Shown piece by piece: positions 4,858-51,551 of a stretch of DNA of 64,000 nucleotides (the first letter of the stretch is position 1; every line of letters starts with the position of its first letter). The position numbers were made by a program, and so were the translations under genes. This stretch comes from Escherichia phage vB_EcoS_FFH_1. The stretch is from the sequence record KJ190157; one strand, written 5' to 3'. The notes beneath the pieces were generated by a model. The model searched no databases, had not been told where the DNA came from, and worked only from the letters and a program-made list of their open reading frames with translations.

Positions 4858-5298
4858 ATTTTTAAAGAGCGTGGCGGTAAACTTCCCGCCGTGTAGTTCG
4901 TCATTGCCGCCCTACGTGATAAATAATAGCAAATACCAAAAATGGCGCAACCTTATTTTTGTAAAGAAACGTAAAGACAAGTGCCACCGGACACCGTGCG
5001 GCAATTGCCTAAGTTTAAAGGAAACGGGCGCGAATACCATAAAACCCAGCGGGTTGGCAAGTAATTTTTTCATTTATATTTGCCTTGCCCTACTTGACAA
5101 AACTTAAAAAGCTCGTGGTAGCGATAAACGAGGGTAGGCAATGCAATGGCATGGCTAAAACTTTCATCGCGTTCTAGGGCGTTTTAGGCCGCTTATTTTC
5201 GAATTAACAAATCATTAACAACCGCAAAATTGAAAAATAGTTGGAAAAGGTCTTGACTTTTAAAAATCAAGACCAAATGACTTAATTTAGTAAATAAA

Positions 5299-5817
5299 TT
5301 AATTGACAATTCCAAATTCAGCTTTTTTAGTTTCAAGCCATAATAGTAACTCTTGTAAATCATAACCAGACTTACTAACACGTTTGTTAGTAATAGGATT
5401 CTTAATTTGAGCAGTCAAATAGTCACGCCCGTAACTATCACGGGGGCGAACTTTATTAACGTAAATGTTTCTAGGGATACCATTAGCACGCTTACAGTTT
5501 TCATACTCACTAGGAGTACGATTATAATTATTCTGCGAACTATCAACCGCGCGAAGATTCCAGATGTTATTATTACGTGGGTTACGATCAATATGATCAA
5601 TCATTAGCTCGCTATCTATACCCCCATTCATTATACAAAAGATAATTCTGTGCACTTTGAATTGTCCCATATCTAATAATTCAACTTGCCAATAATTACC
5701 ATTTAAACCACCTGCGACGGCGTGATCTTCCCGCCAACGTAAAAATGATAACGCTGTTTCATCATAATAAAAGTAACTATTAAAAAGATCATAATCTATA
5801 TCTTTATACTTAGGCAT
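5299..5817 (-). CDS. HNH homing endonuclease
   Basis: 172 aa; HNH motif IDHIDRNPRNNNIWNLRAV plus AP2-like C-terminal DNA-binding region. Confidence 0.7.
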   Translation of the reverse strand: MPKYKDIDYDLFNSYFYYDETALSFLRWREDHAVAGGLNGNYWQVELLDMGQFKVHRIIFCIMNGGIDSELMIDHIDRNPRNNNIWNLRAVDSSQNNYNRTPSEYENCKRANGIPRNIYVNKVRPRDSYGRDYLTAQIKNPITNKRVSKSGYDLQELLLWLETKKAEFGIVN

Positions 5818-6007
5818 CTAATTGTTTCCTTATGTTATTAATTTAATCTCTATTATATTATATCAAAATAGTTAGCAAGCGAGCTAATGAGTTTTTCAGG
5901 ATTAGTTAGCAGACTCATAATCACGGTAAAATCCTATTAGCCAACTAACTATATTTTACGATATAATAACTTTATAAATTAGTTAGTGAGAAAAACTATC
6001 ATTTAAG

Positions 6008-6114
6008 TTATCCACAGACTTAATCACAGCACAAAATAATTTGACATGATAGGCGGCGATATAAGGACTTTTACACAGACTTATCCACATGTTATCCTAC
6101 TGTATAAATATACA
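6008..6114. repeat. left arm of large imperfect inverted repeat with two DnaA boxes
   Basis: TTATCCACA at 6008-6016 and 6081-6089; palindrome ACTGTATAAATATACAG at 6098-6114; reverse complement recurs at 8951-9058. Confidence 0.8.
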
Positions 6115-6382
6115 AGGTAAAAAGGTAGTGTTAACAACTGCAATCAATTTTAAGCCGCCTAAAACGCTTTCTAACGAGCTAAATGCGGTGGGGTAATATT
6201 AAAGTAAAGCCTCAATGCGTCGCCCTGGTGGCTTCGCCGTGTTTTGCTCTTTATTACACCGCTGCGCGGTTATCATAAAAATAGGCGCTAGGCAAGGAAA
6301 ATAAAAAGGTAAAATAATATTTGCCCCTAGAAAGAAAATACCTTTATCATTCACTCACCGATTAACGAGGGAGGCCGAACAA

Positions 6383-8950: not shown

Positions 8951-9058
8951 CTGTATATTTATACAGTAGGATAAGCTGTGGATAAGTCTGTTAATAACGC
9001 CTCAAAATGGCTAGGATTCTGTCAAGTCAAATCGTGCTGTTAATAAGTCTGTGGATAA
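8951..9058. repeat. right arm of large imperfect inverted repeat with two DnaA boxes
   Basis: TGTGGATAA at 8978-8986 and 9050-9058; palindrome ACTGTATATTTATACAGT at 8951-8968. Confidence 0.8.
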
Positions 9059-9084
9059 CTTAAATAATAGTGTTTCTCACTTCC

Positions 9085-9240
9085 ATTCTTAAATGCAAAT
9101 CATTATCATTCGCATTTCACTTTCTAAATGAGAATCATTTCACTTCTTGAATAGTTCTCATTTCACTTTTTAAATGCGAATTATTATCATTCTCATTTCG
9201 CTTTTTAAATGAGAATAATTATCATTCGCATTCGCATTCA
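9085..9240. repeat. degenerate direct repeats (TTAAATG[A/C]GAAT...ATCATTC units)
   Basis: about five 25-35 bp units with internal dyad symmetry, read directly. Confidence 0.6.
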
Positions 9241-9242
9241 GG

Positions 9243-9275
9243 CGAGCGGGGGCAATTGCCCCCCGCGCTTTTGTG
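9243..9275 (+). terminator. hairpin/terminator
   Basis: GCGGGGGCAATTGCCCCCCGC followed by TTTTG. Confidence 0.55.
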
Positions 9276-9871
9276 CAAATCCGACATTGCTCCACGGGTG
9301 TTACGTGCGGGCATGTATGTGCGAATCCGACAATTTTTGGTAGTGTGCAAATCCGACCCGAAAAATTTTATAGTGTGCAAATCCGACAATGAATTTTCCC
9401 AAAAACTCCAGCAATCCGATGCTGCGCATCAATCCTGTGGAATTAGCTAGAATATGTGCAAATCCGACATGGGTTTATTTGTGCGAATCCGACAAGATTT
9501 TTGTGACTTTGATTGGAGGGCGTGTGATTGTAGGGGTTTGAGGAGAAGATGAGAGAGTGAGAGAAATTTGAGGGAACTGTGAGAGGGGCGCAGGATTGGT
9601 GCGGAGCACCTGATTTGCGGGGATTTTGGAGGAGATGTGAGATAACTTGGGTTAATTTGAGATAGGTGCAGAAAAAGCGAAATTTTATTAGCAAAATGGG
9701 GCAAAATAGCTTGACAAGTGAAAATTTCTGTGGCTCTAAAAACTCAGGCAATCATGGGCCTTCGGCCCGAAATAATGCTACTATTTTCAGGAGAGTAAGA
9801 GTTCCTAAAAACTTAGGCGTTTGTGCAAATCCGACCATAAATTTCTAGAAATGCAGTGTGCAAATCCGACA
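9272..9871. repeat. eight dispersed direct copies of TGTGC(A/G)AATCCGACA
   Basis: copies at 9272, 9318, 9346, 9374, 9455, 9480, 9822, 9857, all in the same orientation. Confidence 0.85.
9505..9665. repeat. polypurine (GA-rich) tract with strong strand asymmetry
   Basis: about 160 bp almost entirely G/A/T on the plus strand with GAG(A)G reiterations. Confidence 0.6.
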
Positions 9872-27340: not shown

Positions 27341-27709
27341 TTACATCGCCTGAGTAAATGTACGACTAATAACGTCGTTCTGTTGTTCACGAGTCAGTGC
27401 ATTAAATCGAACAGCGTAGCCAGAGACACGGATGGTCAACTGAGGATATTTTTCAGGATGTTTCTGCGCATCCAAAAGCTGATCACGGCTTAACACATTG
27501 ACATTTAGGTGCTGACCACCTTCGATTTGAGGGGCGACTTCCACCTTAACTTCACGGAAGGCTTCGGGATCGAATTGTGGTGTGATACCTTCTAGATCTT
27601 CAACTAGAACTTTCTGTTTAAGTTCACCATTGTCGGAGTATAGCTGAATAATCTGATTTTCATGAACAAGGTTAATTACGCCAGACTTAAGATTTTGATA
27701 TGCTTTCAT
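27341..27709 (-). CDS. grcA: autonomous glycyl-radical cofactor (GrcA/YfiD-like)
   Basis: 122 aa; C-terminal [10 protein letters not shown]...[20 protein letters not shown] is near-identical to the E. coli GrcA glycyl-radical domain as I recall it. Confidence 0.75.
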
Positions 27710-27983: not shown

Positions 27984-28059
27984 TGGTAGTTAGTAGTGGA
28001 TTTGAACCACTGTAGTCGCTCCGTATGAAGGAGGTGCATAACCACTCTGCCAACTAACT
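27984..28059 (-). tRNA. tRNA-Met(CAU) (or Ile2/fMet)
   Basis: hand-traced cloverleaf; T-arm AGTGG-ATTTGAA-CCACT; anticodon loop on plus strand GTATGAA; CCA encoded. Confidence 0.65.
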
Positions 28060-28155
28060 GTTATGTTTTACTAGACTAAGTAAGTATTCTTTATACTCTT
28101 TAGACCAATTAGCTTTTTTAAACTTTCCTGGACGCATAGTCTTAATTCCTAGATT

Positions 28156-28232
28156 TGGTACTCCGGGAGGGATTTAAACCCCCGATCTCTCGGTTATCAG
28201 CCGAGTGCTTTAGATCGCTAAGCTACCGAAGT
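28156..28232 (-). tRNA. tRNA-Ile(GAU)
   Basis: perfect anticodon stem CTCGG/CCGAG, loop TTATCAG. Confidence 0.7.
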
Positions 28233-28247
28233 ATTAGAATATTTACA

Positions 28248-28538
28248 TCATACACTGTCTAAGTAAGAAGTATAATGGAATTTAGCTTCTCCAGTCTTAT
28301 CTACTTCTACCTCAGTTCGTGGTACTTGACGAACCACACCATGAATCATCTTATAGCGAATGCCTTTAGCTGGTTCATGATCTTTTGGGAATACTTGTTT
28401 AACCGTTACTACTTTATATCCTTCACGCGGTGTTAACACTACTACTTGATCACCTTCTTTGATTTTCCAAGAAGATGGAAATTCATAGGTATATCTTTGA
28501 CCACCAGTTTGGAATACTACAGAAAGATAACGTTTCAT
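28248..28538 (-). CDS. hypothetical protein
   Basis: 96 aa; promoter at 28569-28597. Confidence 0.5.
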   Translation of the reverse strand: MKRYLSVVFQTGGQRYTYEFPSSWKIKEGDQVVVLTPREGYKVVTVKQVFPKDHEPAKGIRYKMIHGVVRQVPRTEVEVDKTGEAKFHYTSYLDSV

Positions 28539-28568
28539 TTGGTTTCCCTCTCATTAATTTATATAGAT

Positions 28569-28597
28569 ATTATAACAAGAAATAAGAGAGAAGGCAA
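28569..28597 (-). promoter_or_regulatory. T5-type early sigma70 promoter
   Basis: TTGCCT, 17 bp, TATAAT. Confidence 0.65.
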
Positions 28598-28602
28598 ATG
28601 AA

Positions 28603-28677
28603 TTTTTAAATTTGGTGCTCCCACCAGGAATCGAACCCGGTTCAGATGCTTACAAGGCAACTGCATCGCCAGCAATG
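28603..28677 (-). tRNA. tRNA-Thr(UGU)
   Basis: T-loop AATCGAA, D-stem GCAT/ATGC, loop TTACAAG; one anticodon-stem mismatch. Confidence 0.55.
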
Positions 28678-28854
28678 CTTTAGGAGCGATGATCCCGTTA
28701 TTTCAACGGGATTTCTTTTTCAATAACAGGAGACTTATCAGTCATAACTGTCATTGCCATTTGTTGTAGAAATTCAAAGGTGAAGGCTACACGTTCTTCA
28801 CCAATCTCTACTTCTACACGTTTCTTTTGTTTATCGATCTTGACTTTTAGGTTG

Positions 28855-29076
28855 TCAGCCATCTTCGGGTTCTCGTTGCTGCGCTACTTCTAGCCAGTCT
28901 GGTAGAAGAAACTTTGTACGAAATTCTTCGTAAGTTTCTTTGGGATAAAAGCTAAAACCTCCTTTCTCATCATTCAGGATAACAGAACCGTCAGTTTGTT
29001 CGTATGCTCGGTATGTTTCCCCAATAACAATAACTCGTTTATCAGTACTTTTATTACGAAACTCAAAAACGTGCAT
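28855..29076 (-). CDS. hypothetical protein
   Basis: 73 aa between tRNA genes. Confidence 0.4.
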   Translation of the reverse strand: MHVFEFRNKSTDKRVIVIGETYRAYEQTDGSVILNDEKGGFSFYPKETYEEFRTKFLLPDWLEVAQQREPEDG

Positions 29077-29092
29077 AATGTTCCCTTAAAGT

Positions 29093-29168
29093 TGGAGCGG
29101 CTAGAGGGAATCGAACCCTACTCAGCGAGGCTTGGAAGGCCTGCGACACAACCCGTGTGCTTAACCGC
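29093..29168 (-). tRNA. tRNA-Gly(UCC)
   Basis: T-loop AATCGAA; anticodon loop TTGGAAG. Confidence 0.6.
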
Positions 29169-29176
29169 TTATTGTT

Positions 29177-29254
29177 TGGCAGGGGATATTGGATTTGAAC
29201 CAATGATCTCGACTTCAAAGGCCGAAGCTTTAGACCAGGCTAAGCTAATCCCCA
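29177..29254 (-). tRNA. tRNA-Gln(UUG)
   Basis: perfect T-arm ATTGG-ATTTGAA-CCAAT; loop TTCAAAG. Confidence 0.6.
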
Positions 29255-29260
29255 ACTGTT

Positions 29261-29336
29261 TGGCAGAAGGTAGTGGGTTCGAACCACTGATCGGGGTTTC
29301 AGAGACCCCAGCCTTAACCGACTTGGCTAACCTTCT
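29261..29336 (-). tRNA. tRNA-Gln(CUG)
   Basis: perfect T-arm and anticodon stem GGGGT/ACCCC; loop TTCAGAG. Confidence 0.7.
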
Positions 29337-29520
29337 TCTTAATACTTTTTGGATCTTCTAAACGTTTGCCTTCATGATCTACTCGAATAACTCCGCACCC
29401 TTCGCAAACCACAACTACACCATAACCTTCTTTGACCTCAGCTTCTGTAATCAAACCAGAAAGATCACCAGTATCTCTGCCCCACATATCAATGGAGCAT
29501 TGTTTGCAGAAATCAGCCAT
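29314..29520 (-). CDS. small zinc-ribbon-like protein
   Basis: 68 aa; CKQC...CEGC. Confidence 0.45.
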   Translation of the reverse strand: MADFCKQCSIDMWGRDTGDLSGLITEAEVKEGYGVVVVCEGCGVIRVDHEGKRLEDPKSIKKKVSQVG

Positions 29521-29545
29521 ATTTTATTTCCTATTTAAGTTAATT

Positions 29546-29622
29546 TGGGGTGGCTAGTGGAATTCGAATCCACATAGGCCTGATTCACAATCAGGATCAT
29601 TAACCAATTATGATATAGCCAC
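29546..29622 (-). tRNA. tRNA-His(GUG)
   Basis: perfect T-arm and anticodon stem CCTGA/TCAGG; loop TTCACAA. Confidence 0.7.
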
Positions 29623-29862
29623 AATTGAAAACTCGCAGGGTTAGCGAAACCTTCCTCAATTAGCATGTTCTAGAATACTAATCAAGTTATCTCCTATTGC
29701 ACGCAGCTCAAGACGAGTACGAATTTTCAATTGTGGTGGCTCTCAGAAACTCTTCTACTCTAGCCTTAGCAGCTTACTCCCGAACGCATGTCGGGGAAGT
29801 CTTACTAAGCGCATCAAATAGCACCGTTACACTTTGAGCCATTGATATATCAAGAAGTAGAA

Positions 29863-29993
29863 GGACTTGAACCTTCACGAGATAGACCATTTATCTCAGC
29901 CGCTTTATGAGGTATATTGCAGAGAGTGGATGTTCCCTATAAACCTTTTAGGCAGCCCCGTCTACCGATTCCGGCATACTTCAAGATTTGGAG
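29863..29993 (-). ncRNA. tRNA-like stable RNA candidate (~130 nt)
   Basis: perfect T-arm GAAGG-ACTTGAA-CCTTC at 29870-29886 and 6-bp acceptor pairing 29863-29869 with 29987-29993, but 100-nt interior with no canonical anticodon arm. Confidence 0.35.
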
Positions 29994-29998
29994 GTAGG

Positions 29999-30093
29999 TA
30001 AGGGGATCGAACCCTTACACCGTATCACTACGATCAACCGATTTCAAGTCGGAGTCCAGCGCCAGCCATTGGATTGACCTACCGTATAAATTG
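29999..30093 (-). tRNA. tRNA-Ser(UGA), class II
   Basis: 95 nt with long variable arm; T-arm AAGGG-GATCGAA-CCCTT; loop TTTCAAG. Confidence 0.6.
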
Positions 30094-30105
30094 TTTGGCG
30101 GAAGA

Positions 30106-30196
30106 GGAGAGATTTGAACTCTCAAGCCGTTTTACCAGTCAGCCACTTTCCAAGCGGTTTTCGTCGCCAATTCGATTTGCTCTTCCAATAATAAGA
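30106..30196 (-). tRNA. class II tRNA, probably Ser(GGA)
   Basis: 91 nt; perfect T-arm and 7-bp acceptor; anticodon arm only resolved with mismatches (loop TTTCCAA). Confidence 0.4.
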
Positions 30197-30233
30197 TGAT
30201 GCCTCTATCACACCAGGCAGTTACGCCTCGCTG

Positions 30234-30300
30234 GGATTCGAACCCATTAAAACAGCTCAACCGAGATAGTAGATTTAATTTACTCTGACCATCAAATTTG
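30234..30300 (-). ncRNA. tRNA-like fragment (T-arm only)
   Basis: T-loop GGGATTCGAACCC present but no acceptor partner or anticodon arm found. Confidence 0.25.
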
Positions 30301-30308
30301 GTGCGTGA

Positions 30309-30385
30309 CAAGGGATTCGAACCCTCAAAACCCGACTTCTAAGGACGGTATGTATGCCAATTCCATCAATCACGCGTATTTGGTG
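30309..30385 (-). tRNA. tRNA with UAG anticodon (Leu by anticodon), class I shape
   Basis: 77 nt, short variable region; loop TTCTAAG; discriminator A. Confidence 0.45.
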
Positions 30386-30390
30386 GAGGA

Positions 30391-30469
30391 TAACGAATTC
30401 GAATCGTTCTGATGTCCTCGGTGCAAGCGAGGTGTCCACCCCTAGCAGACCCATCCCCCAAATTCTTTA
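30391..30469 (-). tRNA. tRNA-Ala(UGC)
   Basis: perfect anticodon stem CCTCG/CGAGG, loop GTGCAAG; G3-U70 wobble in acceptor stem. Confidence 0.7.
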
Positions 30470-30571
30470 GTTTACTAAGGCTATTAGCTCGGCGTAACTA
30501 CAGCACCTTCGCTTCGAGCTAATACCTTAGTGAACTATGATGAGGATTTCTCCCCATCAATTTATATAAAT

Positions 30572-30600
30572 ATTATAACAAGAAATTAAGCATTAAGCAA
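30572..30600 (-). promoter_or_regulatory. T5-type promoter driving tRNA block 30469-29999
   Basis: TTGCTT, 17 bp, TATAAT; tRNAs immediately downstream. Confidence 0.7.
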
Positions 30601-30952
30601 GTACATTTTTGCAGATTTCTTGTAGTTCCTTTACATCACGAACGTAAAGGTAGTCTGAACTTCCAGAGTGCATACTTTGCATAAACACACCCTCATCTGG
30701 CGCAGTATCCTTCAAAGTAATTCCTAACCAAAAAGCGGCAAAACGAGGTGTTACCTCACCTTGACTTGCCTTGAATACATCGGCTTCTGTGATCTCCTGA
30801 CCAGTAGAAAGTCCCATATACGGTACGTTCAGATCGATATCTTTGTAGAATTCAGCTAGGTCTTGTTCGAAGTCCCAACCTTTAGAGATAGCGAACTCTA
30901 TTGTTACATGACCGAAATAACCTTGAATCTTGTTTGATAGTTGCATTTGCAA
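30593..30952 (-). CDS. hypothetical protein
   Basis: 119 aa. Confidence 0.5.
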   Translation of the reverse strand: MQMQLSNKIQGYFGHVTIEFAISKGWDFEQDLAEFYKDIDLNVPYMGLSTGQEITEADVFKASQGEVTPRFAAFWLGITLKDTAPDEGVFMQSMHSGSSDYLYVRDVKELQEICKNVLA

Positions 30953-30961
30953 TTCCTTATT

Positions 30962-31035
30962 TTGAGTTAATTGGTACTCGGTGATAGAATCGAACTATCA
31001 CAACCGCCGTGTAAAGACGGGGTTCTCCCATTAAA
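30962..31035 (-). tRNA. tRNA-Val(UAC)
   Basis: perfect T-arm GATAG-AATCGAA-CTATC; loop GTGTAAA. Confidence 0.6.
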
Positions 31036-31178
31036 CTAACCGAGCAAAAGATTTGCTACTAAAAATGCTTCGAACAGAAATTCACAAAATCCCGCTAAAA
31101 ACATACCTATTGTAAAATCGGCAGAAAATACATAGGAATCTTTTATTTTCTGCTTCATTAAGTAAAACCAGATAGTCA

Positions 31179-31496
31179 TTAAAATCTCTCCATTCTAAAG
31201 CCAATGAAGTAAGGTGCATTACACGGAACATGCTTAAGATCTTTAAGAGTAATTTTACGTCCTAAGCGTCGTTCCATACAAGTGAAACATAGAACAATAT
31301 CTTTGGGCTGCCCTTTTCTTATCTGATCCCAGACCCAATCTTCAACCATACACATTTCATGGTATTGTTCACAGTCTCGACAATAATGACACTGATGTTC
31401 TGGTACTTTTTGATTTTTAATACACAGTTCAGTAAAGCGTTTTCCGGCTCTGCCAGACATTTCTGATATTGTTTCTAGAACTTTGTTAATATTCAT
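31179..31496 (-). CDS. Cys-rich hypothetical protein
   Basis: 105 aa; HQCHYCRDCEQYHEMC...CFTCMERR. Confidence 0.5.
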   Translation of the reverse strand: MNINKVLETISEMSGRAGKRFTELCIKNQKVPEHQCHYCRDCEQYHEMCMVEDWVWDQIRKGQPKDIVLCFTCMERRLGRKITLKDLKHVPCNAPYFIGFRMERF

Positions 31497-31513
31497 AACA
31501 AATTCCTTTAAAT

Positions 31514-31592
31514 TGGTAGATCGCCTGGGACTCGAACCCAGAACCTTCCGATTAAAAGTCGGATGCTACTAAACCTATTGAGCTAGCGACCT
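31514..31592 (-). tRNA. tRNA-Lys(UUU)
   Basis: perfect T-arm and anticodon stem TCCGA/TCGGA; loop TTAAAAG. Confidence 0.7.
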
Positions 31593-31781
31593 ATTAGTAG
31601 CCATTATATACTTCTTTAATAGAATGGACTTTTAAGTAAGGATGATTAATCCCAAACTCCGCCATTACTTCTTTTTCATCTTTTCCATAATGTGCAAGTA
31701 AGGATCTTGAGGTATTATTACCTAAACGTTTGTCATTTACTACTAATCGAAATACTTTCATTTCGAAATCCTCTATTAAAA

Positions 31782-31859
31782 TGGAAGCGGGTGCAGGAAT
31801 CGAACCTACCTCTTTCTAGCTTATGAGACTAGCGATCTCTACCAGAGATCTAACCCGCA
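31782..31859 (-). tRNA. tRNA-Met(CAU) (or Ile2)
   Basis: loop TTATGAG; mismatch at acceptor pair 1-72. Confidence 0.55.
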
Positions 31860-31865
31860 ATTGTT

Positions 31866-31941
31866 TGGTCAGTGCGGCAGGACTCGAACCTGCGACCCGA
31901 AGCATCCAAGGCTCCCACGCTACCAACTGCGCTACGCACTG
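31866..31941 (-). tRNA. tRNA-Pro(UGG)
   Basis: perfect T-arm GCAGG-ACTCGAA-CCTGC and acceptor; loop ATCCAAG. Confidence 0.65.
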
Positions 31942-31950
31942 TTAATTCTT

Positions 31951-32148
31951 TTATTGTGGGGGGATATTAATAATTCGTCCATCTACACAATAAACGGTAC
32001 TAGGGATTGTACTGTATATGTAGAAATTCTTTATATTACTCTCTCCGCCACAGAAATTTTTAGCAAATTCATACTCTTTATTAATGGTTGAGTCAAGTTT
32101 AAAACAACCAGTAAGTAGGAATACAGATAGCAATAAAACTTTCTTCAT
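31951..32148 (-). CDS. small lipoprotein
   Basis: 65 aa; lipobox LLTGC; promoter at 32181-32209. Confidence 0.5.
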   Translation of the reverse strand: MKKVLLLSVFLLTGCFKLDSTINKEYEFAKNFCGGESNIKNFYIYSTIPSTVYCVDGRIINIPPQ

Positions 32149-32180
32149 TTTGCTTTCCTTCTCTTCACTTTATAAAATAT

Positions 32181-32209
32181 ATTATACAGAGAATTAAGTA
32201 AAATAGCAA
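32181..32209 (-). promoter_or_regulatory. T5-type early sigma70 promoter
   Basis: TTGCTA, 17 bp, TATAAT. Confidence 0.7.
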
Positions 32210-32358
32210 ATGAATTTTTAATAAATTTACTTATTGTGTAGGCCACCTGGAGGCTATGAACCCCACGGCTGACAAAGAAGTTTGCGAGACTTCTCTTAAA
32301 AGCCAGAATAGACCCGCCGATCTATCGGAACCTACATAATAAGTAAACTTTATAGTGT

Positions 32359-32479
32359 CATTCTAGACAGGACTCGAACCTGTTATCACTTGTGCGGACT
32401 TACGAGAACCATTCTTTCACTCGAATCGAACGAGCTTCTGCCCTAGCCAAGCTGGTTTCCCCATCAACCACGCTAGAAT
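32359..32479 (-). ncRNA. tRNA-like stable RNA candidate (~120 nt)
   Basis: perfect T-arm ACAGG-ACTCGAA-CCTGT at 32367-32383 and perfect 7-bp acceptor pairing 32360-32366 with 32473-32479; long interior. Confidence 0.35.
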
Positions 32480-32601
32480 GTTTGATTGTTTTCAGTGCAA
32501 GAGTCCGAGTCTTGGACACGACCGCTTCGCAAGTACATAGGCAGCTTATCATGAGTCAGCACTTCCGAATTGCTAGCCCCGTGTTCTGCACTGAAATTTT
32601 A

Positions 32602-32949
32602 TTAGTTTAACCGTAAAGTATTATCTACTTCACCATTAATTGTTCGGCATTCCTCTGGGATTGCCGGTGTAGCCTTGTATTCCCACCACTCAGCACCATC
32701 ATATTCCCCACGTTCTAGCCAAGTTCCATCGGCAAACCATACATTACCATAAAGTAATTGTCCACCGTATCCAGAATCATATTCAAAGTCTAGGTTATTA
32801 AGAAACCCCTCAATGTCTTCTTCTGTATAATCTAAAGGTAATACCCAGACTTTTTTGTCCCCATAATACCCAAATTCTATTTTAATACACTTAACTTTAG
32901 AATTGGTATTTTTTAAGGCGAGTAACAGCTCTTCTTTAGCATTACGCAT
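32602..32949 (-). CDS. hypothetical protein
   Basis: 115 aa. Confidence 0.5.
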   Translation of the reverse strand: MRNAKEELLLALKNTNSKVKCIKIEFGYYGDKKVWVLPLDYTEEDIEGFLNNLDFEYDSGYGGQLLYGNVWFADGTWLERGEYDGAEWWEYKATPAIPEECRTINGEVDNTLRLN

Positions 32950-32974
32950 AGTATATTCTCATACTGAATTAAGT

Positions 32975-33051
32975 TGGCGCGACCGATGGGATTTGAACCC
33001 ACATTCTCTCCCGTGACAGGGGAGTACCATTACCAAGCCAGCCCCGGTCGC
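32975..33051 (-). tRNA. tRNA-Asp(GUC)
   Basis: perfect anticodon stem CTCCC/GGGAG, loop GTGACAG; perfect acceptor. Confidence 0.75.
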
Positions 33052-33060
33052 ATAATTCAT

Positions 33061-33246
33061 TTACTCAGCTTTGAGTTTTTCAATAGCTGCATTAAGTTCT
33101 TTAAGAAACTCTTTTCGTACATTAAGACGATTGAGACTTACTAGTATATCGTGTTTAAGTTCTTCGATGTATTTCTTTTCAACTTCAATATTGTTGATAG
33201 TGCTATCACGATGAACTTCTAGCTGCGCAATTACATTCTTGGACAT
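33061..33246 (-). CDS. hypothetical coiled-coil protein
   Basis: 61 aa. Confidence 0.4.
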   Translation of the reverse strand: MSKNVIAQLEVHRDSTINNIEVEKKYIEELKHDILVSLNRLNVRKEFLKELNAAIEKLKAE

Positions 33247-33348
33247 GCTTGTTTCCTCAGTTATTAATGAAAATGGTATCTGTGGCTGAATTCGATGTCA
33301 GCAATGATAGCTGGTTGGCTACCGGTTTACTTAACTCTACACAGAATT

Positions 33349-33431
33349 TGGCGGGCCGTGTAGGATTCGAACCTACGTTGTCTTTCGACATGGATTAACA
33401 GTCCACCGCCAAACCGCTTGGCTAACGACCC
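33349..33431 (-). tRNA. tRNA-Asn(GUU) with extended variable region
   Basis: perfect T-arm GTAGG-ATTCGAA-CCTAC; D-stem GCCA/TGGC; loop TTAACAG; 13-nt variable region. Confidence 0.55.
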
Positions 33432-33583
33432 TAAATTTATATTGCTGACTAGGATTTTCACCTAGACGGAGTTAGCACCGTAGCGTGTAGCGGCATACCT
33501 CTCCAAACCGTGCCTCATCTTTCAATTACGGAGACAGTGTTCCTACGCGTGCCTGAATTGATTCAACAATTCTTCCAGCAAAT

Positions 33584-33659
33584 TGGACGACCGCATGAGA
33601 TTTGAACTCACATAAAAAGGATTTGCAATCCTTCGCCTAAGCCCTTCAGCCAACGGTCG
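33584..33659 (-). tRNA. tRNA-Cys(GCA)
   Basis: perfect anticodon stem AAGGA/TCCTT, loop TTTGCAA. Confidence 0.7.
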
Positions 33660-33707
33660 GTTTATCTTGTTCTGTCATGTTGCTTCTCCAGTTCAATTTA
33701 TGTAATT

Positions 33708-33736
33708 ATTATACAGAACTTTTGGAAACTAAGCAA
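33708..33736 (-). promoter_or_regulatory. T5-type promoter driving tRNA block 33659-32975
   Basis: TTGCTT, 17 bp, TATAAT. Confidence 0.7.
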
Positions 33737-34016
33737 CTACATTTTTTAAGAATTTGATGCCTTTCTTTTTCTTCTTATATTTCCACGTTAATGGATTCTG
33801 TCGATTATGAACGCTTGAGATCTTTGTCTCGTCAAAGTTCTTCAATATCATGTAATCACAGGATAATTGTTCTAGTAGAATGTGATCACCGTCAAAAGCG
33901 TATACATAAGGCTGTTGACTAACACGATAATGATAGACTTTGTTAATTCTACGTTTCAGCGACTTATCAGCGCAGTAAATAAAGAAGTTTTCAGGATGCA
34001 TCAGCAGCTCCTTCAA
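33729..34016 (-). CDS. hypothetical protein
   Basis: 95 aa. Confidence 0.45.
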   Translation of the reverse strand: MKELLMHPENFFIYCADKSLKRRINKVYHYRVSQQPYVYAFDGDHILLEQLSCDYMILKNFDETKISSVHNRQNPLTWKYKKKKKGIKFLKNVVA

Positions 34017-34099
34017 TTTGGTGCACCCTGTTCGTATCGAACGAACCTCTCAAGCTCTTCAGGCAAGCGCTAATCCATCTCAGCTAAAGGTGCAAATTT

Positions 34100-34176
34100 T
34101 GGCAAACCTACTAGGACTCGAACCTAGACCGTACGGTTTTGGAGACCGACATGCTGTCCAGTAACACTCTAGGAAT
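34100..34176 (-). tRNA. tRNA-Trp(CCA)
   Basis: perfect T-arm CTAGG-ACTCGAA-CCTAG; loop TTTGGAG; two acceptor mismatches. Confidence 0.55.
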
Positions 34177-34184
34177 GCAGAAAT

Positions 34185-34261
34185 TGGCGTCCTGTGCGGG
34201 GATCGAACCCGCAAATCCTACCTTGAAAGGGTAGTGACTTTACCAGTTTGTCTAACAGGAC
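34185..34261 (-). tRNA. tRNA-Glu(UUC)
   Basis: perfect T-arm, anticodon stem CTACC/GGTAG and acceptor; loop TTGAAAG. Confidence 0.75.
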
Positions 34262-34268
34262 TTAAATT

Positions 34269-34359
34269 TGGTGTTGGATGATGGAGTCGAACCACCCGAG
34301 ACCCTTCCGAGTCGGCAGATTTACAGTCTGCTTCGCTACCTCTACGATACTAATCCAAC
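34269..34359 (-). tRNA. tRNA-Tyr(GUA), class II
   Basis: 91 nt with long variable arm; perfect anticodon stem GCAGA/TCTGC, loop TTTACAG. Confidence 0.7.
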
Positions 34360-34489
34360 ATATTTAGAAGTATTCAAAAATTCTCATTTAAACACTTTTA
34401 AATATGTTTTCAAATTAGGTAACTATTATACCAAGTTTTAAGGCACTGAGCAAGTCAAATTTTAAAGAACTTGCTCAGTGCTATATTAG

Positions 34490-34765
34490 TTAGTCGAACT
34501 TAGGAGTGACAGTTAAGGAGAACGGAAGTTCGAAAACTTCTTCACCCTCATTACTAACGGTAACTACACGACCTTTAAGTTCAGACATTAAAATATCAAT
34601 ATCAGCTTTTGCATCTGGAGCCATGCCAGCTTCAATACATTTAGCTTTAACCTCCGGTAGAAGATCTACGTTATAGAGATAGAGCCACTCAATCTCACCT
34701 TCCCAGTCTTCCCAGGATTTGCAGATTGCACTTTCAATACCAGTTGCTGCAACACGATTTTGCAT
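34490..34765 (-). CDS. hypothetical protein
   Basis: 91 aa; promoter 34785-34814. Confidence 0.5.
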   Translation of the reverse strand: MQNRVAATGIESAICKSWEDWEGEIEWLYLYNVDLLPEVKAKCIEAGMAPDAKADIDILMSELKGRVVTVSNEGEEVFELPFSLTVTPKFD

Positions 34766-34784
34766 TCGTTAACTCCTTCATCAA

Positions 34785-34814
34785 TTTATACAACTATTAT
34801 ATCAGAAATTTAAA
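34785..34814 (-). promoter_or_regulatory. T5-type early sigma70 promoter
   Basis: TTGCCT, 18 bp, TATAAT. Confidence 0.6.
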
Positions 34815-34855
34815 GCAAAAGGCAAGTACATTTTTAAAAATTCTGTTTGGAGGAG

Positions 34856-35062
34856 CTAAACTCCAGATTCTTCAGCTAAGTCTAGGCTAATAAGAGTTAT
34901 AGCCATAATTGCTGCACCGTGTTCTTTTTCTCCGGTGTTTTTAGCAGAGTCTATAATAGTCTTAATCTGTTCGTAATAGCCTTTTACTTCTTGTTCAATA
35001 CCTGCCTCGGCTATCATGCCTTTAGTCATGATTCGTTGCATAGTAATTTCACGGTTAGCCAT
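34856..35062 (-). CDS. hypothetical protein
   Basis: 68 aa. Confidence 0.4.
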   Translation of the reverse strand: MANREITMQRIMTKGMIAEAGIEQEVKGYYEQIKTIIDSAKNTGEKEHGAAIMAITLISLDLAEESGV

Positions 35063-35238
35063 GATGTTTCTCCAGCTTCATTTTTAATAGTTTACAAATG
35101 AAATCAACGTCTTCATCTGTACCTAGATCTCTATCTTCAAGAGTTGCCTTGAAGTTTTTAGTCAATTCCATGAGGATAACTTCTCTAGAACGACGTGTTG
35201 GCGGAGGTGGATGTCTATACATCTTATTTCCTTAGTTT

Positions 35239-35315: not shown

Positions 35316-35321
35316 TGTAGT

Positions 35322-35510: not shown

Positions 35511-35529
35511 TTGTGACCTCTATTTAATT

Positions 35530-35607: not shown

Positions 35608-35613
35608 AGAATT

Positions 35614-35702: not shown

Positions 35703-35717
35703 GAATTTATAAGATAT

Positions 35718-48642: not shown

Positions 48643-48671
48643 ATTATAGCAAATCTGGTAGCGATTAGCAA
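48643..48671 (-). promoter_or_regulatory. T5-type promoter upstream of nrdB
   Basis: TTGCTA, 17 bp, TATAAT. Confidence 0.7.
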
Positions 48672-48677: not shown

Positions 48678-49160
48678 TTATAAACTATCAAGCTCCAATA
48701 GTTTAGCATCGCGCCATTCTATAGCATCCTCTAATTCTTTGAATGTTTTAGTATGTTTTACACCTTTTCTAGCAATCTGGACTTGGTAAGATCCGCTTGC
48801 TTTTTGGTGTATATTTTTAATACCTAACTTATTGTCTTTGTGCGCTCCGACATTCTTTCCATTGTTAAATCTATCAGATGCTAATAAATTAATTGCTCTA
48901 TTATCATGACGTATTCTGTTGTCATGGTCTACTTCTTTTGGAATGTATCCATGGGTGATATAGAATGCTAAGATATGTGCATAGTATTTTTTACCCCTTA
49001 CTTGCATTACTATGTATCCTGAACATTTTTCTAGAGAACCTGCTTCTTTGTCAGCAAACTTAGTATTAAAGGATTTATCTTCTCTAGGTCTGTGGGTAAA
49101 GATTCCGGTTTCTGGATTATAGTCAAATAACTCAGCTATTTCTTTGTATTTTTCTTCCAT
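48678..49160 (-). CDS. HNH homing endonuclease
   Basis: 160 aa; HNH motif VDHDNRIRHDNRAINL; inserted between nrdB and nrdA. Confidence 0.75.
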   Translation of the reverse strand: MEEKYKEIAELFDYNPETGIFTHRPREDKSFNTKFADKEAGSLEKCSGYIVMQVRGKKYYAHILAFYITHGYIPKEVDHDNRIRHDNRAINLLASDRFNNGKNVGAHKDNKLGIKNIHQKASGSYQVQIARKGVKHTKTFKELEDAIEWRDAKLLELDSL

Positions 49161-49189
49161 AATCTAAAATTACAGCCGTTATAGGCCTA

Positions 49190-49212
49190 ATAAAAGGGGC
49201 TTTCGCCCCCTT
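49190..49212 (-). terminator. hairpin terminator between nrdA and HNH gene
   Basis: GGGGCTTTCGCCCC flanked by A/T runs. Confidence 0.55.
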
Positions 49213-49217
49213 ATTTA

Positions 49218-51551
49218 TTATAATTGGCAACCACCTGATGCGCATCCAGCAGCAGCTTCCTCTCCTGCACCTCCACCGTTTGCGGTGTTGAAGTTAGCAT
49301 AATAGAAAGTTTTCCACCCGTACTTAACAGCAGTCATGAAATCACGAACTACTACTGGGCCAGGAATAATTTCATTCTCAAACTTGGTGTAGTCGTAGTA
49401 CATATTAGTACTGATAGACTGGCTGAAGAATTTCTGCATAGTTGCTACCCATTTGATCCACTCGATACGATCTACATCATAAGCCAATTTATAGCTCATT
49501 AACGTTTCCCAATCGGTTGCACCTGGAGCAATTGCAATTACTTTATTTACTGCACTACCCTTGATAGATACAATCTTACGTGGTGGTTCGATAGAGTTAG
49601 TAACACCTAACAGAACAGAAGAACTTTCTCCCGGCATCTGAGCAGTCAGAACAGAGTTACGCATACCATATTTCAGAATATCTGCACGTAGAGACTCCCA
49701 ATCCATTTCTAGACCTATGGATACCAGTTCATCAACAGTTTTCTTGTACGTGTCGATTACCAAAATTCCCTTAGATGGTTTAGTACGATCAAACCACTCA
49801 CATGCACCCTGTTCTTTAGCTAGGCGTACAGAGGCTTTATGCAGGAAGTAAGACAGTTTTTCAGCCTCACGGTGAATCCAGTTACGTGCTTCAATACCTT
49901 CATAAGCCAGACCTTCTGCGGCCATTGCACCTGCTGCGTTCATTAGGCCAATACCAACATTACGACGTTTCTTAGCCGTATATTCCATAGTTGGGAACGG
50001 ATAATCCTGAATTTCGATAATTGTATCAATGAATTTCAGAAGGATGTAGCAAGTTTTTTCCCACTCAGCCAGAGATTCCATGCGTCCAAGTACAACACCA
50101 CCTAAGTTACACAGAGATACTTCACCAATATCCTCCGGCTTCATTTGATCAAGCTGCTCTTTTGTCTTATACAGCTCTGTGATATGATGGAACGGGCGTG
50201 TAGGCTGAGTAATCTCAACACAAAGGTTTGTCATACGGATCGGATCAAGGAAATTACCATGACGATTAGACTCCCCAATGTGATGAGCATACATACGTCC
50301 TGTTTCCATTCGGATACGTAGCCAAGTATCTAGGATTTCTTTTGCAGAGACTTTAGGAGCTGCTGGAACTGTTTTTCCTTTGTGGTCGATCTTTGTAAGA
50401 GATGCCACACGTTTCTCCGCTGCCACATAGATTTCTTCAAATTTAGCCTCGTCATCACTATAAAACGCTTCATGAACTTCTGGAGCATAGAAGTATGACA
50501 TTAGCGTAATATCTTCATTTTTCAGATAACGTTTTAACAAAAGATTGTTGAAGCTCAGAGAATAATCCATCTTATCGATTTTATTCTCATCTGTAGCACG
50601 TTGTTGCTTAACCTGCATCAATTGAATGATTTCAGGGTCAAAGTATGGATAAGACACTGTAGCAGAACCACCACGAGTTTGCTGAGTATTGGCCTTTACT
50701 GAGCGGTCAATGTGTCGATAATATGGCAGTTTTCCGGAATGCGGGAATGCCCCATTTCGCACCGGATCAGCAATTGATCTGCTCTCAAGATGATACCCGA
50801 TTCCCGCTCTGGCTGCGACCATTTTGAAGACGATGTGCTCGGCGGTGTCGATTGAATCCAACGTGTCAGTGGAATCCACGAGGCAGCAACTAGCAAATCC
50901 ACGGTCACTAGAGCGCAGACCAACCAGTGGCGGCGTAGGAACGTTGATTTTGTGGAGCGACATTGCGTTGTAGAGGTCGATTGCATCTAGAATTGTCCAG
51001 TTAGGTTGAGATAACATCGCCATTGCCATACCCATGTAGGCAAACTGCGGGGTTTCATAAATTTCACCAGTGGCTATGTTACGACGGGAATACTTATCAA
51101 AGAACTGCTTCAGCCCACCACTAGTAAAAAGACGGTCACGATCATGGTCGATAACCTGATTCAGAGCTTCAAATTGCTCATCGGTAATCCATGCACTCAT
51201 GTCTTCCCATGCACCTACGCTAACCATGTGGTCATGGAAGAAACGTAGAGAAGGTGGTTCGAAGGAGTCATAAAGGCGCTTACGCATTTGCGCAAGACGT
51301 AATTCCTTTGCTGGCACATCGTATGCTGGGTTATCTTTGATAAGACTTTCAGCAGCTTTAATTAATGCGTCCATCAGAGTGTCGGAATCTACAACCCCTT
51401 TAGGTAGAGTTTTTTGAGCAGCCATAGTAATGGCTGACCAACTTACATCAACTGTTTTGCAACCATACTCTGCCCAACCATTGAGTTTTTCAGGAGCAAA
51501 GTCTTCTACAGTACCGTCACGTTTAATTACTTTTTCAATGCGATGGCTCAT
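49218..51551 (-). CDS. nrdA: ribonucleotide reductase class Ia alpha subunit
   Basis: start set at MSHRIEKVIKRDG (ATP-cone) after AGGAAAG RBS, table ORF extends to 51656; C-terminal Cys pair. Confidence 0.9.
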   Translation of the reverse strand: MSHRIEKVIKRDGTVEDFAPEKLNGWAEYGCKTVDVSWSAITMAAQKTLPKGVVDSDTLMDALIKAAESLIKDNPAYDVPAKELRLAQMRKRLYDSFEPPSLRFFHDHMVSVGAWEDMSAWITDEQFEALNQVIDHDRDRLFTSGGLKQFFDKYSRRNIATGEIYETPQFAYMGMAMAMLSQPNWTILDAIDLYNAMSLHKINVPTPPLVGLRSSDRGFASCCLVDSTDTLDSIDTAEHIVFKMVAARAGIGYHLESRSIADPVRNGAFPHSGKLPYYRHIDRSVKANTQQTRGGSATVSYPYFDPEIIQLMQVKQQRATDENKIDKMDYSLSFNNLLLKRYLKNEDITLMSYFYAPEVHEAFYSDDEAKFEEIYVAAEKRVASLTKIDHKGKTVPAAPKVSAKEILDTWLRIRMETGRMYAHHIGESNRHGNFLDPIRMTNLCVEITQPTRPFHHITELYKTKEQLDQMKPEDIGEVSLCNLGGVVLGRMESLAEWEKTCYILLKFIDTIIEIQDYPFPTMEYTAKKRRNVGIGLMNAAGAMAAEGLAYEGIEARNWIHREAEKLSYFLHKASVRLAKEQGACEWFDRTKPSKGILVIDTYKKTVDELVSIGLEMDWESLRADILKYGMRNSVLTAQMPGESSSVLLGVTNSIEPPRKIVSIKGSAVNKVIAIAPGATDWETLMSYKLAYDVDRIEWIKWVATMQKFFSQSISTNMYYDYTKFENEIIPGPVVVRDFMTAVKYGWKTFYYANFNTANGGGAGEEAAAGCASGGCQL

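What the first reader, a model, noticed from the sequence alone, without database searches (positions are those of the whole stretch)
5299..5817. Two HNH homing-endonuclease genes, one in the pre-early region and one splitting nrdB from nrdA
Both ORFs (5299-5817 and 48678-49160) have HNH motifs plus AP2-like DNA-binding tails and are likely free-standing homing endonucleases. The copy between the RNR subunit genes sits at a classic homing target. The pre-early copy is flanked by AT-rich sequence lacking other genes.
Basis: partly seen in the sequence, partly recalled or inferred. Interest (0 to 1): 0.4.

Follow-up and report, generated by a model that had tools for sequence, protein, structure and literature searches.

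The report
Two free-standing HNH homing endonuclease genes
The window is from a T5-like phage and carries two small selfish endonuclease genes at spots where many close relatives have none, which is an ordinary, already-annotated feature of this phage group.

Summary
Both ORFs exist exactly as described, on the minus strand: 5299-5817 (172 aa) and 48678-49160 (160 aa). Each passes Pfam's threshold for HNH_3. Each has a confident predicted structure whose best solved match is the nicking homing endonuclease I-HmuI, followed by a three-strand-plus-helix tail that matches AP2/ERF DNA-binding domains. The window is a T5-like phage (Tequintavirus).

ORF1 sits at the site of T5 hegG (P-TflVII). ORF2 sits in the nrdA-nrdB spacer, where T5 carries a different gene, hegH (P-TflVIII). 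The two proteins are 100% identical to proteins already annotated in Phage NBSal005 and phage vB_EcoS_FFH_1.

Most of the ~450 related phage records lack each gene at the same position, with sharp junctions and no remnants.

The nrdA-nrdB spacer holds at least three unrelated-lineage HNH genes in different phages, at two different insertion points. Both genes are under purifying selection (dN/dS 0.02-0.24).

The best explanation is free-standing homing endonuclease genes that spread by gene conversion in mixed infections. Cleavage and homing have not been tested for either gene. The published literature already describes this hotspot in T5-like phages. Interest is low.

The parts
5299..5817 (-). 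ORF1, a 172-aa HNH_3 endonuclease with an AP2-like C-terminal tail. It occupies the T5 hegG (P-TflVII) site in the pre-early, first-step-transfer region of the left terminal repeat.
5308..5905 (-). Approximate extent of the ORF1 cassette that is absent from HEG-less relatives: coding sequence, AAGGA ribosome-binding site and the promoter-like region just upstream. The left junction falls within the last two codons and the stop (shared ...AAATTAATTGAC). The right junction is only approximate.
   Evidence: Alignment with T5, Elw, phB7 and JLBYU40 and BLAST coordinates. T5 annotates a promoter directly upstream of hegG. Sequence read.
48678..49160 (-). ORF2, a 160-aa HNH_3 endonuclease with an AP2-like C-terminal tail, in the nrdA-nrdB spacer.
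   Evidence: AF2 pLDDT 92. Foldseek I-HmuI and TEM1 AP2. Subfamily profile hits I-HmuI at E 0.0018 and WRI1 AP2 at E 0.003. 100% aa identity to vB_EcoS_FFH_1. dN/dS 0.02-0.09.
48678..49217 (-). The ORF2 cassette of about 540 bp. It replaces about 37 bp of the HEG-less spacer, including that allele's nrdA terminator hairpin. The left junction is at the ORF2 stop codon and the right junction is at the nrdA stop.
   Evidence: Junction sequences of 7 HEG+ and 6 HEG- genomes and alignment.
49194..49212 (-). GC-rich hairpin (GGGGGCGAAAGCCCC followed by TTTTATTA on the minus strand) between the nrdA stop and the ORF2 start. It is specific to the cassette and stands in for the terminator of the empty allele. 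No Shine-Dalgarno sequence or clear promoter lies between it and the ORF2 ATG.
48643..48671 (-). nrdB promoter (TTGCTA-17-TATAAT with TG), conserved in HEG+ and HEG- genomes. The ORF2 stop lies about 8 bp upstream of its -35. In T5 and Spc35 the other HNH genes sit downstream of this promoter instead.
   Evidence: T5 annotates a promoter here.
49218..49300 (-). Last ~83 nt of nrdA, whose sequence variant travels with the window-type HEG. It is a candidate co-conversion tract or target/immunity polymorphism.
   Evidence: Identity to the window is 87-93% in five of the six HEG+ genomes compared and 78% in the divergent S124. It is 79-84% in HEG- genomes. The rest of nrdA is about equally similar in both groups. 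Fixed differences at 49245, 49251 and 49254.

Best explanation
Both ORFs are free-standing homing endonuclease genes (HEGs) of the HNH_3 plus AP2-like family, resident in a T5-like phage genome. The proposed mechanism is as follows.

In a cell co-infected by a HEG-carrying and a HEG-less relative, the enzyme binds a long, degenerate site near its own insertion point in the HEG-less genome. It binds through the N-terminal beta-sheet and the C-terminal AP2-like domain. The His-Me (HNH) centre then nicks or cuts the DNA. By analogy with I-HmuI and T4 MobE, the likely lesion is a strand-specific nick that replication turns into a break.

Recombinational repair copies the HEG cassette and a short stretch of flanking sequence from the HEG+ genome. 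The HEG+ genome itself escapes, because the cassette or linked substitutions alter the site.

ORF1 is a self-contained cassette with its own promoter-like region and a good ribosome-binding site in the pre-early DNA. It would therefore be made at the very start of infection. ORF2 has neither, sits just after a hairpin downstream of nrdA, and is probably expressed at a low level by read-through, as T4 mobE is.

Shown here: domain architecture, conserved catalytic positions, confident fold, presence/absence at fixed sites with clean junctions, several HEG lineages in one spacer, purifying selection, and a linked flank polymorphism. Inferred: enzymatic activity, nick versus double-strand cut, target position, expression route, and present-day mobility.
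For: Architecture and fold:
- Pfam HNH_3 above threshold for both, and PHROG 99.
- Catalytic D-H/N/N columns are invariant and align residue-for-residue with I-HmuI.
- AF2 pLDDT is 92 and 90.
- I-HmuI is the top structural match for both. Profile-to-PDB E-values for I-HmuI are 2.8e-14 and 1.4e-9.
- The AP2-like tail is supported.

Empty sites:
- Pre-early site and nrd site.
- There are no HEG remnants in the empty alleles.
- Window-type ORF1 is in about 24 records and window-type ORF2 in about 42-46, out of roughly 450 related records.

Occupancy of the nrd spacer:
- T5 hegH type is in about 75 records and the Spc35/AKFV33 type in about 29-36.
- These lineages share only 36-44% aa identity with ORF2 and insert at a different point in the spacer.
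- ORF2 occurs in both Tequintavirus and Epseptimavirus, next to HEG-less members of each genus with equally similar flanks.

Other evidence:
- The nrdA 3' end co-segregates with the HEG.
- dN/dS is 0.02-0.09 for ORF2 and 0.09-0.24 for ORF1, against 0-0.04 for nrdB.
- HNH+AP2 is a recognised HEG family (PMC10448857).
- RNR genes are frequent HEG targets, and T4 mobE between nrdA and nrdB is promoterless and nicks T2 nrdB (PMC2790892; PMC3045599).
- HEGs are the main variable genes among T5-like phages (PMC10644984).
Against: - No biochemical or genetic test of either protein exists. T5 names its genes at these two sites 'P-' (putative) endonucleases.
- ORF2's synonymous divergence between genera (dS 0.47-0.50) is about that of nrdB (0.54-0.74). 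There is therefore no sign of a recent cross-genus jump. Long residence with occasional loss would give a similar pattern.
- No target site could be identified.
- The nrdA 3' polymorphism is not exclusive. HEG-less RN29 also has the extra codon.
- ORF2 lacks a visible promoter and Shine-Dalgarno sequence, so expression is uncertain.
- Pfam does not call AP2 in either window protein.
Confidence: 0.8

Rival explanations
1. The genes descend from HEGs but are now retained for a benefit to the phage rather than for homing. One possibility is a weapon that degrades or excludes co-infecting relatives, made from the pre-early DNA in the case of ORF1. Another is a DNA-binding regulator that uses the AP2-like domain, as I-TevI doubles as an autorepressor.
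For: Purifying selection is strong and, for ORF2, as strong as on nrdB. ORF2 has co-diverged with its flanks across two genera. ORF1 has its own promoter-like region and a strong ribosome-binding site in the earliest-expressed DNA, beside a divergent promoter region.
Against: Most relatives do without either gene. Non-orthologous HEGs replace each other at the same spacer, which is the pattern of selfish turnover rather than of a fixed useful gene. Marker exclusion is itself the normal outcome of homing, so this rival overlaps with the main explanation.
Confidence: 0.12
2. They are inactive relics: former HEGs that have stopped cutting and are drifting towards loss, inherited only vertically.
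For: The HEG life cycle predicts such a stage. Truncated relatives of ORF1 lacking the tail exist in databases (P0012, P0013, P0019 and P0034; vB_Sen_H9/I1). There is no evidence of recent cross-genus transfer.
Against: Both reading frames are full length and all catalytic positions are intact. dN/dS of 0.02-0.24 shows selection on the protein. The predicted folds are confident.
Confidence: 0.06
3. The enzymes are the nickases that make the well-known site-specific single-strand interruptions in T5-type virion DNA.
For: The closest solved relative, I-HmuI, is a nickase (PMC3017599). T5 and BF23 virion DNA carries specific nicks (PMC10644984).
Against: The literature read here treats nicks as a general trait of T5-like phages. 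Each of these genes is absent from most T5-like genomes, and the alleles are highly variable. Nothing links either gene to nick positions.
Confidence: 0.02

Closest known systems
T5 hegG (putative H-N-H endonuclease P-TflVII, T5.010)
   Same: It occupies the same site in the left terminal repeat, on the same strand, with the same length (172 aa) and the same promoter-plus-ORF layout. Both gene ends and the flanks are 88-92% identical in DNA.
   Different: It is only about 55-60% identical in protein. The core, at window 5380-5740 (N-terminal sheet, HNH motif and linker), is 36-75% identical in DNA. The window therefore carries a different, mosaic allele, the one found in NBSal005, EC100, fp01 and NR01.
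T5 hegH (P-TflVIII) and the Spc35/AKFV33 ORF96 endonuclease
   Same: They are free-standing HNH_3 genes with AP2-like tails in the same nrdA-nrdB spacer, on the same strand.
   Different: They share 36% and 44% aa identity with ORF2. They are inserted downstream of the nrdB promoter with the stop overlapping the nrdB start. ORF2 is inserted upstream of that promoter and replaces the nrdA terminator.
The vB_EcoS_FFH_1 / EPS7 endonuclease (EPS7 and vB_Eco_mar003J3 records label it 'H-N-H endonuclease F-TfIVI') and the phiR2-01 g086 endonuclease
   Same: This is the same gene as ORF2. Identity is 100% to FFH_1 and 96-98% to the others, and the position is the same where it was checked.
   Different: Nothing of substance. 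These are database annotations without experimental data.
I-HmuI (PDB 1U3E), the intron-encoded HNH nicking homing endonuclease of Bacillus phage SPO1
   Same: It is the best solved match for both proteins. It shares the N-terminal DNA-binding sheet plus His-Me finger, and the D74/H75/N96 positions align.
   Different: I-HmuI is intron-encoded, and its C-terminal DNA-binding module is not AP2-like (a helix-turn-helix, from memory). Sequence identity is only 17-20%.
T4 MobE
   Same: It is a free-standing HNH gene between nrdA and nrdB. It is promoterless, co-transcribed with nrdA, and nicks the HEG-less relative's nrdB (PMC2790892). ORF2 likewise lacks its own promoter and ribosome-binding site and follows nrdA.
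   Different: There is no detectable homology to ORF2 (BLASTP E 0.82; hhalign probability 0.3%). It is an independent occupant of the same niche.
HNH-AP2 homing endonucleases (Magnani et al. 2004) and the 'IPA-HNH' genes of Barth et al. 2023
   Same: They have an N-terminal HNH and a C-terminal AP2 DNA-binding domain and are free-standing in phage genomes near essential genes (PMC10448857).
   Different: The IPA-HNH genes have HNH domains too divergent for the Pfam HNH_3 model, whereas the window proteins match HNH_3 directly. The window tails fall below Pfam's AP2 threshold.

Membership tests
HNH / His-Me finger endonucleases (Pfam HNH_3, PF13392) | Match to the family model above the curated cut-off | tested here: met
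   47.4 and 34.5 bits against a cut-off of 24.8.
HNH / His-Me finger endonucleases (Pfam HNH_3, PF13392) | Catalytic His (general base) and metal-binding Asp/Asn positions present | tested here: met
   D74-H75, N87 and N96 in ORF1; D78-H79, N91 and N100 in ORF2. These columns are invariant or nearly so in 74-78 homologues. They align with the same positions of I-HmuI. The roles of these residues in I-HmuI are from memory of Shen et al. 2004.
HNH / His-Me finger endonucleases (Pfam HNH_3, PF13392) | Beta-beta-alpha-metal fold | tested here: met
HNH / His-Me finger endonucleases (Pfam HNH_3, PF13392) | Metal-dependent nuclease activity | not testable with these tools
   Needs purified protein.
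AP2/ERF-type DNA-binding domain (Pfam PF00847) | Match to the Pfam AP2 model | tested here: not met
   Neither the full proteins nor the isolated tails hit AP2, even at E <= 10. 40 of 74 homologues do.
AP2/ERF-type DNA-binding domain (Pfam PF00847) | Three-stranded antiparallel sheet packed on one C-terminal helix, similar to solved AP2 domains | tested here: met
AP2/ERF-type DNA-binding domain (Pfam PF00847) | Profile-level sequence homology of the tail to AP2 domains | tested here: inconclusive
   The broad family profile gives WRI1 at E 3.5e-9 and TEM1 at 4.5e-6. The ORF2 subfamily profile gives WRI1 at E 0.003 and other ERFs at E about 1. The ORF1 subfamily profile gives no AP2 hit. Its hhalign alignment to AP2-positive relatives runs through residue 154.
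Free-standing homing endonuclease genes | Stand-alone ORF, not within an intron or intein, between conserved genes | tested here: met
   ORF2 lies in the nrdA-nrdB spacer. ORF1 lies in a non-coding stretch of the pre-early region.
Free-standing homing endonuclease genes | Presence/absence polymorphism at the same site among otherwise collinear, closely related genomes, not tracking the phylogeny of the flanks | tested here: met
   Flank identity is the same for HEG+ and HEG- genomes, and both states occur in two genera.
Free-standing homing endonuclease genes | Site-specific cleavage or nicking of the HEG-less allele near the insertion point, with the HEG+ allele resistant | not testable with these tools
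   The only lead is a linked sequence variant in the last ~83 nt of nrdA.
Free-standing homing endonuclease genes | Nuclease-dependent over-transmission with co-conversion of flanking markers in mixed infection | not testable with these tools
   Needs phage crosses. The short nrdA-side tract that travels with the HEG is compatible with co-conversion but does not prove it.

The most novel reading that the evidence does not exclude
ORF1 sits in the first-step-transfer DNA with its own promoter, so it may be expressed before the rest of the genome enters the cell. It could then act as an immediate-early inter-phage weapon that cuts the incoming first-step DNA of HEG-less relatives, combining homing with a form of superinfection exclusion. 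A related reading concerns the nrdA-nrdB spacer. There, three HEG lineages use two distinct insertion points relative to one promoter. The HEGs might partition a single spacer into separate, non-competing homing sites and rewire nrdB/nrdA transcription signals as they go, since ORF2 replaces the nrdA terminator with its own.
Probability: 0.15. Interest if true: 0.45.

Novelty: already known. Interest (0 to 1): 0.15.

Why it matters
It matters little beyond correct annotation. These genes explain part of the mosaic differences among T5-like phages that are being developed for biocontrol and therapy. They also mark places where recombination between co-infecting phages is likely to be stimulated.

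The one modestly useful point is that the nrdA-nrdB spacer offers a natural, well-sampled system for studying competition and turnover of homing endonucleases. It has an empty state plus three HEG lineages at two insertion points, with hundreds of sequenced genomes. The enzymes could also be a source of rare-cutting nickases. Neither point is surprising to a specialist.

Tried and rejected
- Pfam scans of the isolated C-terminal tails for AP2 found nothing, even at E <= 10. Single-sequence searches of the PDB gave only a weak I-HmuI hit for ORF1 and nothing useful for ORF2. Profiles and predicted structures were needed.
- Homology of ORF2 to T4 MobE was tested and rejected.
- I looked for HEG remnants in the empty alleles by tblastn and found none.
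- I looked for further members of the family in the window with two HMMs and found none.
- I looked for other endonuclease genes among ORFs of at least 90 aa in the tRNA cluster, where T5 has F-TflI/II/IV, and found none.
- The first multiple alignment of the nrd spacer scattered the short empty alleles across the HEG. The list of 'fixed differences' inside 48680-49150 is therefore an alignment artefact and was discarded. The junctions were read from the ungapped sequences instead.
- The idea of a recent cross-genus jump of ORF2 was rejected, because its dS matches that of nrdB.
- A literature search for the enzyme behind the T5 genome nicks gave nothing that links it to these genes.
- The metagenome, genome-contig and representative-protein searches were not used, because the phage collection already answered the question.

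Full report
**What the window is.** The region around the first ORF matches about 450 phage records, almost all of them T5-like Salmonella and Escherichia phages (Demerecviridae, Tequintavirus and Epseptimavirus), at 85-93% identity. Window position 4300 corresponds to T5 position 4413. The window therefore starts near the left end of the genome, inside the left terminal repeat that is injected first. The second region matches the same phages at up to 96.8%.

**Check of the observation.** Both ORFs are present exactly as stated, on the minus strand. They run 5299-5817 (172 aa) and 48678-49160 (160 aa).
- Both pass Pfam's curated threshold for HNH_3, at E 1.5e-12 and 1.6e-8. Both match PHROG 99, annotated as HNH endonuclease.
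- The catalytic D-H, N and N columns are conserved in both and in 74-78 homologues. ORF1 aligns to the nicking homing endonuclease I-HmuI with those residues in register.
- Two HMMs built from the family find only these two members in the window.
- The two proteins are distant paralogues, 31% identical over 106 residues.

**The AP2-like tail.** Pfam does not call AP2 in either protein or in the isolated tails. The claim holds on other evidence.
- 40 of 74 homologues carry Pfam AP2.
- The family profile hits I-HmuI at E 2.8e-14 with its first two thirds. It hits plant AP2/ERF domains with its last third, WRI1 at 3.5e-9 and TEM1 at 4.5e-6.
- A profile restricted to ORF2's own subfamily still finds WRI1 at E 0.003 and a consistent series of ERF domains at E about 1.
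- The AlphaFold models are confident, with pLDDT 92 and 90. Both end in three strands followed by a long helix.
- For ORF2, Foldseek lists I-HmuI and then AP2 domains. TEM1 matches at 1.4 A over 38 columns with probability 1.0, although the E-value is only 0.19 for so small a domain.
- ORF1's subfamily profile finds no AP2 by sequence. Its tail has an insertion of about 13 residues between the first two strands, so for ORF1 the support is at fold level only.

**Surroundings of ORF1.** In T5 the same place holds hegG, annotated as 'putative H-N-H-endonuclease P-TflVII', with a promoter immediately upstream. The window has the same layout: a promoter-like region and an AAGGA ribosome-binding site before the ATG.
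- The flanks are AT-rich, 25-27% GC against about 40% nearby. They have no annotated gene in T5.
- The flanks do contain annotated promoters, two perfect DnaA-box 9-mers and parts of two inverted repeats.
- The window protein is 100% identical to that of Phage NBSal005 and 95-98% identical to those of about 20 other records. It is only about 55-60% identical to T5 hegG.
- Against T5, the ends of the gene and its flanks are 88-92% identical in DNA. The core at 5380-5740 is only 36-75% identical. The alleles at this site are therefore mosaic.

**Empty-site alleles at the pre-early site.** Phages Elw, phB7 and JLBYU40 align with the window on both sides at 88-95% and have no endonuclease gene there.
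- The left junction is sharp. It falls within the last two codons and the stop of ORF1 (shared ...AAATTAATTGAC, up to window 5307).
- On the right, homology resumes at about 5906 (77%) to 5985.
- About 600 bp (ORF, ribosome-binding site and upstream promoter-like region) stand in place of about 90-100 bp of unrelated sequence.
- tblastn finds no remnant of the gene in the empty alleles.
- Of about 450 matching records, only 23 cover at least 80% of the 2.7-kb query. 24 encode a protein at least 80% identical to ORF1, and 47 more encode relatives below 60% identity, some at another site in the repeat.

**Surroundings of ORF2.** On the minus strand the order is nrdA (49218-51656), ORF2, nrdB (47466-48611), then dhfr and thyA. 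I compared seven HEG+ genomes (window, SUT_E1520, SP01, bombadil, saus176N, 1-23, S124) with six HEG- genomes (Baret, HMD-P5, HdH2, S131, smaug, RN29). The junctions are exact.
- All genomes share the nrdB leader and promoter (TTGCTA-17-TATAAT at 48671-48643), up to ...GCAAGTAAAATT.
- In the HEG+ genomes the ORF2 stop codon follows at once.
- On the other side, the sequences rejoin at the nrdA stop.
- About 540 bp replace about 37 bp, which in the empty allele are the nrdA terminator hairpin.
- The cassette supplies a different hairpin at 49194-49212. That hairpin is followed by 35 nt with no Shine-Dalgarno sequence or clear promoter before the ATG.

**Several HEGs in one spacer.** T5 (hegH, P-TflVIII) and Spc35/AKFV33 carry other HNH genes in the same spacer.
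- They are 36% and 44% identical to ORF2.
- They are inserted at a different point, downstream of the nrdB promoter with the stop overlapping the nrdB start.
- Rough occupancy among about 445 records is as follows, with RefSeq/GenBank duplicates included:

| State of the nrdA-nrdB spacer | Records |
|---|---|
| Window type | 42-46 |
| T5 hegH type | about 75 |
| Spc35/AKFV33 type | 29-36 |
| Remainder, the majority (sampled rows mostly lack any annotated endonuclease) | rest |

- The two sites assort independently. phB7 lacks hegG but has the T5-type hegH.

**Signs of homing and of function.**
- Flanks of HEG+ and HEG- genomes are equally similar to the window. Both states occur in Tequintavirus and in Epseptimavirus.
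- The exception is the last ~83 nt of nrdA. It is 87-93% identical in five of the six HEG+ genomes compared (78% in the divergent S124) and 79-84% identical in HEG- genomes. The differences are largely synonymous and keep the C-terminal Cys...Cys pair.
- That pattern fits a short co-conversion tract or a target-site immunity variant. It is not exclusive, because HEG-less RN29 shares the extra codon.
- dN/dS is 0.02-0.09 for ORF2 and 0.09-0.24 for ORF1, against 0-0.04 for nrdB. Both proteins are therefore under selection and are not decaying.
- ORF2's dS between genera (0.47-0.50) is close to that of nrdB (0.54-0.74). There is no sign of a recent jump between genera.

**Mechanism.** The best-supported reading is that both are free-standing homing endonuclease genes, and I put this at 0.8.
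- In mixed infection the enzyme would recognise a long site near the insertion point in the HEG-less genome and nick or cut it.
- Repair from the HEG+ genome would then copy the cassette and nearby markers.
- A strand-specific nick is the likelier lesion. The closest solved relative, I-HmuI, is a nickase (PMC3017599). The analogous T4 gene mobE lies between nrdA and nrdB, is promoterless and nicks T2 nrdB (PMC2790892).
- ORF2 is not homologous to MobE. The shared location is therefore convergent.
- Activity, lesion type, target position, expression route and present mobility are all inferences.
- Three rivals are scored in the report: retention for a benefit such as exclusion or regulation (0.12), inactive relics (0.06), and the nickase that makes the T5 genome nicks (0.02).

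**Comparison with what is known.**
- HNH plus AP2 is a recognised homing endonuclease family (Magnani et al. 2004, as cited in PMC10448857).
- RNR genes are frequent targets of such elements (PMC3045599).
- T5 has annotated hegG and hegH.
- The AKFV33 paper of 2012 already discussed the endonuclease between nrdA and nrdB in T5-like phages and compared it with mobE (PMC3326045).
- The BF23 paper names homing endonucleases as the main source of differences among T5-like genomes (PMC10644984).
- ORF2 is 100% identical to a protein annotated as H-N-H endonuclease in vB_EcoS_FFH_1.
- The only details added here are the exact junctions, the two insertion points and three lineages in one spacer, the swapped terminator, the linked nrdA variant, the mosaic hegG allele and the selection estimates.

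**Verdict.** The feature is already known and ordinary for this phage group. Interest is 0.15.

Noticed in passing
window 5985-6114 and 8952-9081; 9-mers at 6008, 6081 (+) and 8977, 9050 (-); also 16867 (-): There are five perfect DnaA-box 9-mers (TTATCCACA) where 0.63 are expected. Four form two pairs 73 bp apart inside a 130-nt inverted repeat (79% complementary). That repeat brackets the plus-strand pre-early gene block starting at 6383. The function was not examined. It may relate to known repeat and DnaA-box features of the T5 first-step-transfer DNA (from memory).
   Followed up: partly
window 5179-5195 (+) and 6151-6167 (-): A 17-nt inverted repeat, GCGTTTTAGGC(C/G)GCTTA, has only these two copies in the window against 0.13 expected. 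It flanks the ORF1 cassette and its promoter region. The left arm is also present in T5 and in HEG-less JLBYU40, so it is not part of the mobile cassette.
   Followed up: partly
window 9074-9500: A dense cluster of direct and inverted repeats: 66-nt units at 9074, 9155 and 9190; GTGC(A/G)AATCCGAC units at 9264-9500; and palindromes at 9092-9232. It lies near the inner end of the terminal repeat. It is possibly the T5 injection-stop-signal region (from memory, not tested).
   Followed up: no
window 5380-5740 versus T5 (L001): The window's hegG allele and T5's share gene ends and flanks at 88-92% DNA identity, but the core is only 36-75% identical. This suggests exchange of the central, specificity-determining part between alleles at one site.
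   Followed up: partly
window 49218-49300 (3' end of nrdA): The last ~83 nt of nrdA travel with the window-type HEG. The changes are mostly synonymous, plus one extra Ala codon. This is a candidate target or immunity site or a co-conversion tract. HEG-less RN29 also has the extra codon.
   Followed up: partly
window 27984-39311: A cluster of 22 tRNA genes, all on the minus strand. Unlike T5, no endonuclease gene was found among the ORFs of at least 90 aa in this cluster.
   Followed up: partly
window 27341-27709 (-), 35724-36293 (-), 38255-39202 (-): Three ORFs in or next to the tRNA cluster have Pfam matches. A 122-aa ORF matches the glycine-radical domain (E 3.7e-18) and resembles a stand-alone glycyl-radical cofactor. 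A 189-aa ORF matches Toprim. A 315-aa ORF matches SPFH/Band 7.
   Followed up: no
L011 (saus176N) 2279-2608; database proteins P0012, P0013, P0019, P0034; vB_Sen_H9/I1: Some records annotate or encode shortened versions of these endonucleases that lack part of the protein. In saus176N the DNA still encodes the full 160 aa, so that case is an annotation difference. The others may be decaying copies.
   Followed up: no
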